Assembly: GCA_964016885.1 (NCBI GenBank)
Contig: OZ024741.1
Coordinates: forward strand, 108,748,001 to 108,812,000
Direction: 5' to 3'
DNA from: Eledone cirrhosa
Taxonomy: Eukaryota
Length of the DNA stretch: 64,000 bases
Positions 23,923 through 25,512 of this stretch are shown here, piece by piece; positions within the stretch are counted from its first letter, which is position 1; each line of letters starts with the position of its first letter. A program made the translations under genes and the position numbers. The notes under the pieces were generated by a model. The model did no database searches and was not told the DNA's origin. It was given only the letters and a program-made list of their open reading frames with translations.

Positions 23923-25512
23923 CATTATGAAGAGAGATGAAACATTTAGATATAATTAGTAATAAAATATATCATACCTAAACTGCTCCTAAATTCCTCG
24001 ACTACGTAGTTTCGTGGCATAAACAAAAACAATATATCATAAAGATATAGAGTCCTTGCGAGGTCTGCCGACTTATCAAGAGGATACCTCATTTTACTAG
24101 TCTCAAGAACGCGTCTACACGACGTGAGAAAGAATCCCAAAAGGCGGAGGGGGAGATAGTCACGCGATATAACGGTCGAGAAACAGAGCTAAGCCTCCTA
24201 TAACCCCGAAGAAAATACCACGGAGGCGGAGGGGGTATTTATATCGAGGCCACAGTTGGGTGCGGATGCATTCATGTATATATGTGTGTGTCCGCATGTA
24301 TCTGTGTGTTTCTAAATATATTGTTAATAACTCCCTCTGGTCGAGCAATCTTTGAAGTGTGGGGACAGCTGGAAAGCTTCCATTACTCATACTTCTCGCC
24401 TTCTTCACCACCTCTTCTACGGCCTCGATATAAATACCCCCTCCGCCTCCGTGGTATTTTCTTCGGGGTTATAGGAGGCTTAGCTCTGTTTCTCGACCGT
24501 TATATCGCGTGACTATCTCCCCCTCCGCCTTTTGGGATTCTTTCTCACGTCGTGTAGACGCGTTCTTGAGACTAGTAAAATGAGGTATCCTCTTGATAAG
24601 TCGGCAGACCTCGCAAGGACTCTATATCTTTATGATATATTGTTTTTGTTTATGCCACGAAACTACGTAGTCGAGGAATTTAGGAGCAGTTTAGGTATGA
24701 TACATTTTATTACTAATTATATCTAAATGTTTCTTCTCTCTTCATAATGTATTTTTAACTCTGATACTGGTTCAGTCTAGTTCAACTGAATTGGTCTGTC
24801 CCAGTCATTCATTGAGCAACATCGGTGAAGTTGGCACCCTTAACTCACAGTTGGGTGCGGATGCATTCATGTATATATGTGTGTGTCCGCATGTATCTGT
24901 GTGTTTCTAAATATATTGTTAATAACTCCCTCTGGTCGAGCAATCTTTGAAGTGTGGGGACAGCTGGAAAGCTTCCATTACTCATACTTCTCGCCTTCTT
25001 CACCACCTCTTCTACGGCCTCGATATAAATACCCCCTCCGCCTCCGTGGTATTTTCTTCGGGGTTATAGGAGGCTTAGCTCTGTTTCTCGACCGTTATAT
25101 CGCGTGACTATCTCCCCCTCCGCCTTTTGGGATTCTTTCTCACGTCGTGTAGACGCGTTCTTGAGACTAGTAAAATGAGGTATCCTCTTGATAAGTCGGC
25201 AGACCTCGCAAGGACTCTATATCTTTATGATATATTGTTTTTGTTTATGCCACGAAACTACGTAGTCGAGGAATTTAGGAGCAGTTTAGGTATGATACAT
25301 TTTATTACTAATTATATCTAAATGTTTCTTCTCTCTTCATAATGTATTTTTAACTCTGATACTGGTTCAGTCTAGTTCAACTGAATTGGTCTGTCCCAGT
25401 CATTCATTGAGCAACATCGGTGAAGTTGGCACCCTTAACTCACAGTTGGGTGCGGATGCATTCATGTATATATGTGTGTGTCCGCATGTATCTGTGTGTT
25501 TCTAAATATATT
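23923..25512 (+). mobile_element. Young retrozyme-like array: inverted arm (23923-24251) plus ~2.1 tandem 595-bp units; U3:A8 HHRs at 23995-24084 (-), 24588-24677 (+), 25183-25272 (+)
   Basis: Identical ORFs 595 bp apart; tcctc-TTGATAA-gtcggca...tgccac-GAAA-ctacgtag-TC-gagga; (TA)n flanks. Confidence 0.93.

What the first reader, a model, noticed from the sequence alone, without database searches (positions are those of the whole stretch)
23923..25512. Very young 595-bp tandem HHR element with U3:A8 core and a long stem II insert
Seen: two apparently identical 595-bp units, an inverted partial arm, and a near-identical dispersed copy at 2061-2508. The HHR has a 5 bp stem I, UUGAUAA, a ~45 nt insert in stem II, a palindromic CUACGUAG stem III and a GUC site. 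A TATA-like tataaata lies upstream and there is no real ORF. Inference: a recently active non-autonomous family whose long stem II and variant core would be missed by standard HHR models. It is the best candidate for an expressed ~595 nt circular RNA.
Basis: partly seen in the sequence, partly recalled or inferred. Interest (0 to 1): 0.85.

Follow-up and report, generated by a model that had tools for sequence, protein, structure and literature searches.

The report
Ribozyme retrozyme with long Penelope tail
A 595-base non-coding repeat carrying a predicted self-cleaving hammerhead ribozyme has been copied thousands of times into TA microsatellites of this animal genome, likely by Penelope-like retrotransposon enzymes reading round an RNA circle, and its insertions almost always use two fixed start points, one at each end, which makes it a testable model of how these elements integrate.

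Summary
The anatomy is confirmed and the tandem is not an assembly error. A 25-base piece of the ribozyme occurs exactly 7,103 times in the 3.0-Gb genome. The unit is non-coding, has three age layers (about 97%, 88% and 74% identity) and shows compensatory base changes in the hammerhead. Insertions sit in (TA)n, have ragged 5' ends and two fixed 3' ends, A and B, about 165 nt apart. Of 69 inverted two-arm insertions, 63 have one A and one B end, and none has two alike (one A/A case in a separate set). This is the Penelope 'tail' signature, but 165 nt long against 30-40 nt published and 38-64 nt in four autonomous Penelope-like families here. Rare variants recur in every unit and both arms of an insertion, which fits rolling-circle copying of one monomer. 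It is a non-LTR retrozyme, a known class. The U3:A8 core is published and common in this genome's Penelope-like elements, and the TATA-like word is not conserved. Expression, cleavage, circularity and the driver element remain untested or unfound. The scan noted similar ribozyme-free elements in other genomes.

The parts
24251..25512 (+). Forward arm: 2.12 head-to-tail copies of the 595-nt unit (24251-24845, 24846-25440, 25441-25512), ending at fixed end B
   Evidence: 667 of 667 bases identical at period 595
23920..24251 (-). Inverted arm (unit positions 171-502), ending at fixed end A against the left (TA)n run
   Evidence: 332 nt, 2 mismatches
24588..24677 (+). Type I hammerhead motif, copy 1 (U3:A8 core, palindromic stem III); predicted cleavage after 24672
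   Evidence: covariation
24607..24652 (+). 46-nt hairpin extension of stem II
   Evidence: fold; helix 3 has 94% of cells paired, 3 of 14 pairs with two-sided changes and 7 with one-sided changes
25183..25272 (+). Hammerhead motif, copy 2; predicted cleavage after 25267
23995..24084 (-). Hammerhead motif, copy 3, in the inverted arm
24750..24752 (+). Site A (unit position 500-502): inferred reverse-transcription start, 80 nt 3' of the cleavage site
   Evidence: 100 arm ends at unit positions 496-507, 94 of them at 502; loose ends in another run
24753..24917 (+). 165-nt tail between sites A and B, with two conserved hairpins (about 24758-24817 and 24842-24905)
25506..25517 (+). Site B (unit position 71-77), used as the right end of this insertion
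   Evidence: 87 arm ends at unit positions 71-80
24429..24530 (+). Candidate promoter-like stretch: variable AT-rich word, then two conserved GC-box-like repeats (24437-24448, 24519-24530); function untested
   Evidence: alignment A2; AT-rich word tally
23851..23922 (.). Left (TA)n target run
25506..25541 (.). Right (TA)n target run
2061..2509 (+). Separate one-arm, 5'-truncated insertion of the same family, ending at site A in (TA)n
   Evidence: 98.5% identity

Best explanation
This is a non-coding tandem retroelement family (a non-LTR retrozyme) with thousands of copies in (TA)n microsatellites, likely mobilised in trans by a Penelope-like element's reverse transcriptase and GIY-YIG endonuclease from a likely circular 595-nt RNA. 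Inferred steps: tandem copies are transcribed; two hammerheads pair through the palindromic stem III and cut out a monomer; the monomer is ligated into a circle; the borrowed enzyme nicks (TA)n and starts copying inside the RNA at site A or site B, helped by AU-rich microhomology; it runs round the circle for a variable distance, giving arrays with a fixed 3' end and a ragged 5' end. When both target strands prime, one uses A and the other B, and the two cDNAs are joined tail to tail through 0-11 nt of microhomology. Shown here: the ends, targets, one-A-one-B rule, uniformity within insertions and conserved RNA structure. Not shown: transcription, cleavage, circularisation and the identity of the driver.
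For: 7,103 exact 25-mers. In 126 insertions sampled by position on the largest contig, 187 of 197 arm 3' ends fall at A or B, and 181 of those 187 are followed by (TA)n. Two-arm insertions: 63 A/B, 0 A/A, 0 B/B, 6 with a non-standard end, of 69; binomial p about 1e-19 against independent choice (the first sample gave 23 of 25, the second 40 of 44). The same ends occur in the 88% layer (14 A/B, 5 B plus other, 11 single B of 30 loci) and the 74% layer. Autonomous elements with RT, a C-terminal GIY-YIG domain and a Neptune-type cysteine linker are abundant here. They also carry hammerheads with palindromic stem III, end in (TA)n at two sites, and show A/B in 6 of 6 inverted pairs of the family counted. 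Single-template signal: units of one insertion differ by 0.5-0.6% against 3.7% between insertions; at 41 diagnostic sites 2,612 comparisons were uniform and 16 mixed; in L089 four rare substitutions are in all 7-8 copies on both arms, and L283 has about 15 units with one difference. No pile-up of 5' ends at the cleavage site (4 of 195, 3.6 expected). Hammerhead alignment of 36 copies: 96% of cells paired, 7 pairs with two-sided changes, slid controls 32-61%. The circular sense fold has z from -3.2 to -7.1 in five representatives.
Against: No autonomous partner was found. The unit has no DNA similarity beyond microsatellite-like matches to 50 loci with GIY-YIG domains (the one full hit is a nested insertion), and its cleavage-to-B stretch scores no better than shuffles against four families. 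One A/A insertion was seen among 16 two-arm insertions in the top-identity set (L008). In vitro, the anole Poseidon element used unprocessed RNA and did not need its hammerhead (PMC11167929), so a circle is not required by known biochemistry. A homogeneous multimeric transcript could also give uniform arrays, and L281 has variants in 5 of 6 copies. The covariation reflects few independent events among related subfamilies, and the count of covarying pairs was reached by 39 of 500 shuffles. In minimum-energy folds the active hammerhead does not form.
Confidence: 0.72

Rival explanations
1. Same Penelope-like driver and same two start sites, but the template is a linear RNA: an uncleaved tandem transcript, or a monomer re-entered by repeated template jumps. 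The hammerhead would be inherited or act elsewhere, and no circle is needed.
For: PMC11167929 (main text read): hammerhead mutants did not affect insertion and unprocessed RNA was the dominant substrate. The hammerhead is not the minimum-energy fold. Of 197 arms, 174 span at least one intact cleavage site, as they would on uncleaved RNA.
Against: Rare variants fill all 7-8 units on both arms of L089, and arms reach 4.0-4.5 kb with almost no unit differences, while existing arrays differ by about 0.5% between units. Variants private to one insertion were in all copies 40 times and in only some copies 7 times; 147 were in one copy. The hammerhead core and palindrome are kept across 26% divergence.
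Confidence: 0.2
2. The units are solo terminal repeats (pLTRs) left by truncated insertions of an unseen autonomous element, later amplified in place by unequal crossover, as proposed in bioRxiv 10.64898/2026.07.22.740005.
For: That preprint links Xenopus retrozymes to pLTRs and favours local amplification. Truncated pLTR pairs of autonomous families are common here. Only a small share of all copies was examined.
Against: No copy continued into an element ORF: among 173 young-layer loci only three had Penelope-like protein matches, all in flanks outside the (TA)n-bounded insertion; none in the 30 mid-layer loci and one at a locus edge among 30 old-layer loci. Sequence 3' of site B leads back into the next unit in all three layers. 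Both inverted arms are multimeric, share variants and end precisely at A and B, which crossover would not produce.
Confidence: 0.06
3. The tandem is an assembly duplication or an ordinary satellite.
For: The two units are 100% identical, and a few loci are locally duplicated with their flanks (L053, L250, L284).
Against: Dispersed arrays on many contigs, the unit junction in another run's contig, fixed ends and covarying RNA structure.
Confidence: 0.02

Closest known systems
Animal non-LTR retrozymes (Cervera & de la Pena 2020, PMC7229834; review PMC7761336; Li, Clavereau & Pollet, bioRxiv 10.64898/2026.07.22.740005)
   Same: Non-coding tandem repeats with one type I hammerhead per unit, thousands of copies, highly structured predicted circle, co-occurring with Penelope-like elements. 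595 nt is above the 150-450 bp of the 2020 paper but inside the 51-972 bp of the preprint.
   Different: In the passages read, those papers do not describe fixed internal ends, inverted two-arm insertions or (TA)n targeting; the review says no conserved motif points to the driver. Here the ends give a direct Penelope signature. The hammerhead is of the Penelope type (U3:A8, long stem II), not the canonical loop-loop type. Circular RNA was shown for those families and not for this one.
Penelope-like elements with endonuclease: pseudo-LTR, tail and inverted arm (Craig et al. 2021, PMC8557442; Arkhipova et al. 2013, PMC3846280; Frangieh et al. 2024, PMC11167929)
   Same: 5' truncation, partial tandems, an inverted truncated arm, a tail present at one end only, (TA)n targets, and internal initiation at two sites that bound the tail.
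   Different: No RT or endonuclease is encoded. The tail is about 165 nt against 30-40 nt published and 38, 39, 56 and 64 nt in four autonomous families here. Site use is strictly one per end, whereas the in vitro study saw no difference in start site between the two strands.
Penelope-type hammerhead variants (Cervera & de la Pena 2014, PMC4209133)
   Same: U3-A8 core (Cercyon), 5-bp stem I, bulged stem II, palindromic stem III predicted to work as a dimer.
   Different: Stem II carries a 46-nt structured extension, and the stem III palindrome is 8 nt and covaries between subfamilies.
MRC1 and other non-autonomous Chlamys elements (passage in PMC8557442)
   Same: Non-autonomous, multi-copy head-to-tail insertions made by a Penelope-like partner.
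   Different: Those generally share 3' sequence with their partner and mostly lack canonical hammerheads; this family has a conserved hammerhead and no partner homology was found.

Membership tests
Non-LTR retrozyme | Tandem repeats with a type I hammerhead in each unit (two or more consecutive units) | tested here: met
Non-LTR retrozyme | No protein-coding capacity | tested here: met
   longest ORF 76 codons, not conserved across five representatives
Non-LTR retrozyme | Highly self-paired predicted circle | tested here: met
   z -7.1 for this unit, -3.2 to -6.1 for four others; consensus fold with 14 of 143 pairs changed on both sides
Non-LTR retrozyme | Self-cleavage of the RNA | not testable with these tools
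   only motif conservation and covariation
Non-LTR retrozyme | Expressed as linear and circular monomer RNA | not testable with these tools
   no run on record as RNA was listed
Non-LTR retrozyme | Target-site duplications | tested here: inconclusive
   both flanks are (TA)n, which hides duplications; no clear empty site was recovered
Penelope-like insertion mechanism | Fixed 3' ends, 5' truncation and inverted truncated arm | tested here: met
Penelope-like insertion mechanism | Tail present at one end only of inverted insertions | tested here: met
   63 A/B, 0 A/A, 0 B/B of 69; one A/A
Penelope-like insertion mechanism | Tail length of 30-40 nt | tested here: not met
   164-165 nt; local autonomous families 38-64 nt
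Autonomous Penelope-like element | RT plus GIY-YIG ORF | tested here: not met
   no ORF in the unit; no copy examined continues into one
Derivative of a named local Neptune-type family | Sequence homology to the partner's terminal repeat | tested here: not met
   none against 50 loci or four families' end regions; other families were not sampled

The most novel reading that the evidence does not exclude
A Penelope-like enzyme dimer engages one circular ribozyme RNA and primes the two strands of a (TA)n target from two separate, mutually exclusive sites that a structured 165-nt tail holds 165 nt apart, each subunit then rolling round the same circle. The family would be a natural record, thousands of insertions deep, of both-strand integration by Penelope-like elements and genomic evidence that retrozyme arrays are written in one step from a circle. 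It would have parasitised these enzymes across about 26% divergence by RNA shape alone, without shared sequence.
Probability: 0.4. Interest if true: 0.7.

Novelty: new variant of a known kind. Interest (0 to 1): 0.5.

Why it matters
How Penelope-like elements make their tandem and inverted insertions, and whether animal retrozymes really spread through circles using these enzymes, are open questions in the papers read. This family ties a retrozyme to the Penelope mechanism through its ends. It favours one-step array formation over later local amplification, and it shows strict one-site-per-end use that the only in vitro system read did not reveal. A 595-nt unit with two mapped start sites, a long structured tail and candidate driver ORFs in the same genome is a compact test system. 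The family is also a recent source of insertions into microsatellites (roughly 3,500 insertions, inferred from 100 motif hits per 49 loci).

Tried and rejected
RNA expression: no RNA holder listed; the six runs are of unknown kind and contigs only, so nothing follows about expression. Driver search: 50 of the 150 listed GIY-YIG loci were compared with the unit; walking to older subfamilies reached 74% identity with no ORF-linked copy. One Neptune-type family has nearly the same cleavage-to-A spacing (82 against 80 nt) and similar-looking end words, but shuffles scored as high or higher in 287 of 300 cases, so no assignment is made. An 11-bp helix pairing sites A and B was predicted for the young unit but is absent from the consensus fold and shrinks to about 6 bp in old copies; rejected as the explanation. 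An excess of 5' ends at unit positions 195-240 (16 of 75 arms) suggested a transcription start but was weak in the second sample (14 of 122). A 5-nt stretch at unit positions 165-169 could pair with stem III and changes with it in one step between layers; too little to claim. TATA box: not conserved. A 48-codon ORF over the ribozyme is frameshifted in the 591-nt subfamily. Empty-site and target-duplication search was uninformative, so whether the (TA)n runs pre-exist or grow during insertion is open. The tree failed and was not used; the E-box tally returned nothing, so that motif rests on alignment A2 only. Literature searches with 'octopus' and 'cephalopod' rested on my guess about the lineage, which no call establishes; one search found no paper.

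Full report
Observation. The unit (u1-u595 = window 24251-24845) repeats with exact period 595 over 667 identical bases, so the forward arm is 2.12 units ending at 25512. An inverted arm covers 23920-24251 (u171-u502, 2 mismatches), and a separate copy aligns at 2055-2509 with 98.5% identity. Both ends of the focal insertion abut (TA)n runs. Rfam listed no hammerhead among 150 shown of 178 matches at E<=1.

Copy number and reality. The window lies in a 3.0-Gb assembly. A 25-mer from the ribozyme occurs exactly 7,103 times, with 0 for the reversed control. The first 100 hits fell into 49 loci, which suggests about 3,500 insertions (inference). In four other public runs laid on the array (4 of the 6 listed; kind unknown, contigs only), a 620-nt contig crosses the unit junction, and loose (AT)n ends fall at 24321, 24752 and 25347. 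The best run may be the assembly's own source.

Insertion anatomy. I took insertions by position on the largest contig: all 49 loci and 78 more stretches from two variant patterns and two long arrays. One stretch was dropped because it ran off the fetched edge; locally duplicated copies were counted once, and a second, cut-off insertion in L219 was left out. In the 126 insertions, 187 of 197 arm 3' ends lie at A (u496-507; 94 at u502) or B (u71-80), and 181 of these are followed by (TA)n; 5' ends are scattered. Of 57 one-direction insertions, 33 end at A, 22 at B and 2 elsewhere. Of 69 inverted two-arm insertions, 63 have one A and one B end, none has two alike, and 6 have a non-standard end. 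Inversion junctions overlap by 0-11 nt in 63 of 69. In the 30 top-identity loci (21 insertions, read by eye) 13 of 16 two-arm insertions were A/B, one was A/A (L008) and two had a non-standard end. All samples were ascertained by containing the ribozyme or the full unit, which biases arm lengths but not obviously the pairing of ends.

Age layers and structure. Searching with divergent copies gave a layer at about 88% identity and one at about 74%, with units of 581-612 nt and no conserved ORF. The same ends recur: 14 A/B, 5 B plus other and 11 single-B among 30 mid-layer loci chosen with a B-ending query (one repeats L062), and about 15 A/B pairs by eye with no like pair in 30 old-layer loci. 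In young monomers the catalytic core deviated at 4 of 1,308 positions and stem I at 0 of 1,005, against 1.2-3.3% elsewhere (the search pattern itself fixed the 3' half of the motif in most copies). In 36 of 68 distinct hammerhead copies, chosen by hand to span the layers, 96% of cells paired, 7 of 29 pairs changed on both sides, and slid controls paired 32-61%. The stem III palindrome changes from CUACGUAG to CUGCGCAG or CUGUACAG. These reflect few independent events. A ten-monomer consensus fold keeps two hairpins in the tail, and the circular sense strand folds better than shuffles (z -3.2 to -7.1; antisense -0.5 to -3.2; 12 shuffles each).

Template. Units within an insertion differ by 0.5-0.6%, across arms as within them, against a mean of 3.7% between insertions. 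At 41 diagnostic sites, 2,612 within-insertion comparisons were uniform and 16 mixed. Substitutions private to an insertion were in all copies 40 times, in some 7 times and in one copy 147 times. L089 has four rare substitutions in all 7-8 copies over both arms; L283 has about 15 units with one difference; L281 is less clean. There is no run-off at the cleavage site (4 of 195). This fits repeated copying of one monomer, most simply a circle, but a homogeneous linear multimer is not excluded.

Driver. A GIY-YIG search gave 10,596 candidates, 150 scored. Fifty loci were examined; they include several families with RT, a C-terminal endonuclease and a CxxxxCxxC linker, the motif PMC8557442 assigns to Neptune. 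These carry hammerheads with palindromic stem III, mostly U3:A8, read partly by eye. They end in (TA)n at two sites 38, 39, 56 and 64 nt apart, and one family showed A/B in 6 of 6 inverted pairs. The unit shares this architecture but no significant sequence, and no copy examined continues into an ORF. The driver is therefore inferred at the level of class only; Neptune-type and Hydra-type elements are both candidates.

Comparison with print. bioRxiv 10.64898/2026.07.22.740005 (main text through the discussion read; supplements closed, and they may list similar families) derives vertebrate retrozymes from pLTRs and favours local amplification. PMC11167929 (main text and part of methods) shows internal initiation at two sites bounding a 30-40 nt tail, no strand difference in start site, and no need for the hammerhead in vitro. 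PMC4209133 (results and discussion) reports the U3-A8 core and proposes circles as templates. PMC8557442 (passages) and PMC3846280 (passages) describe the tail at one end of inverted insertions and (TA)n or AT-rich targets. PMC7229834 and PMC7761336 (passages) define non-LTR retrozymes and name Penelope-like elements as candidate drivers. Six searches turned up no description of this family, of a tail this long, or of a counted one-site-per-end rule; the library lacks most subscription papers and repeat databases were not searched. The scan's notes list two ribozyme-free Penelope-type tandem elements and one pLTR fragment in other genomes (unchecked) and nothing like this sequence.

Verdict. 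Real, abundant and recently active. It works like a non-autonomous Penelope-like element and meets the sequence-level criteria of a non-LTR retrozyme. The new points are the 165-nt structured tail, the strict pairing of ends and the single-template signal. New variant of a known kind; interest 0.5.

Noticed in passing
window 23467-23831, 11850-14070, 18952-19314, 59064-59212: Terminal-repeat pieces of an autonomous Neptune-type family, with a U3:A8 hammerhead and A/B ends in (TA)n; one inverted pair directly abuts the finding's left (TA)n run.
   Followed up: partly
window 12263-12892 (+), 22891-23334 (-), 31741-32247 (+): Fragments of Penelope-like ORFs; the last has a CxCx5C linker like that described for the Hydra clade in PMC8557442, so Hydra-type elements are also candidate drivers.
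   Followed up: no
window 25542-25740: Another repeat begins right after the right (TA)n run and recurs beside (TA)n in other loci; the site looks like a nest of (TA)n-targeting insertions.
   Followed up: no
two-arm insertions: The arm ending at B has its 5' junction at unit positions 588-12 (base of the second tail hairpin) in 10 of 63 cases against about 2 expected (window chosen after seeing the data); the focal insertion does the same. Possibly a pause site.
   Followed up: partly
L241 and L283: Two insertions use the same inversion junction, between complementary 8-mers at unit positions 176 and 250, with A and B arms swapped.
   Followed up: no
L128:1775-5062 and L126:2809-5622: Long open Neptune-type frames (1,096 and 938 codons stop to stop) with RT matches; L126 also matches GIY-YIG. 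Several such families look recently active.
   Followed up: partly
L008: The only A/A insertion seen has a 12-base flank repeat on both sides and (TA)n on one side only, which hints that some (TA)n may be added during insertion.
   Followed up: partly
window 29402-29601: 200-base assembly gap (N run), outside the finding.
   Followed up: no
window 54046-55512, 47972-48547, 27485-27886: Fragments resembling LINE, DNA-transposon and helicase (Helitron-like) ORFs, judged by eye from translations.
   Followed up: no
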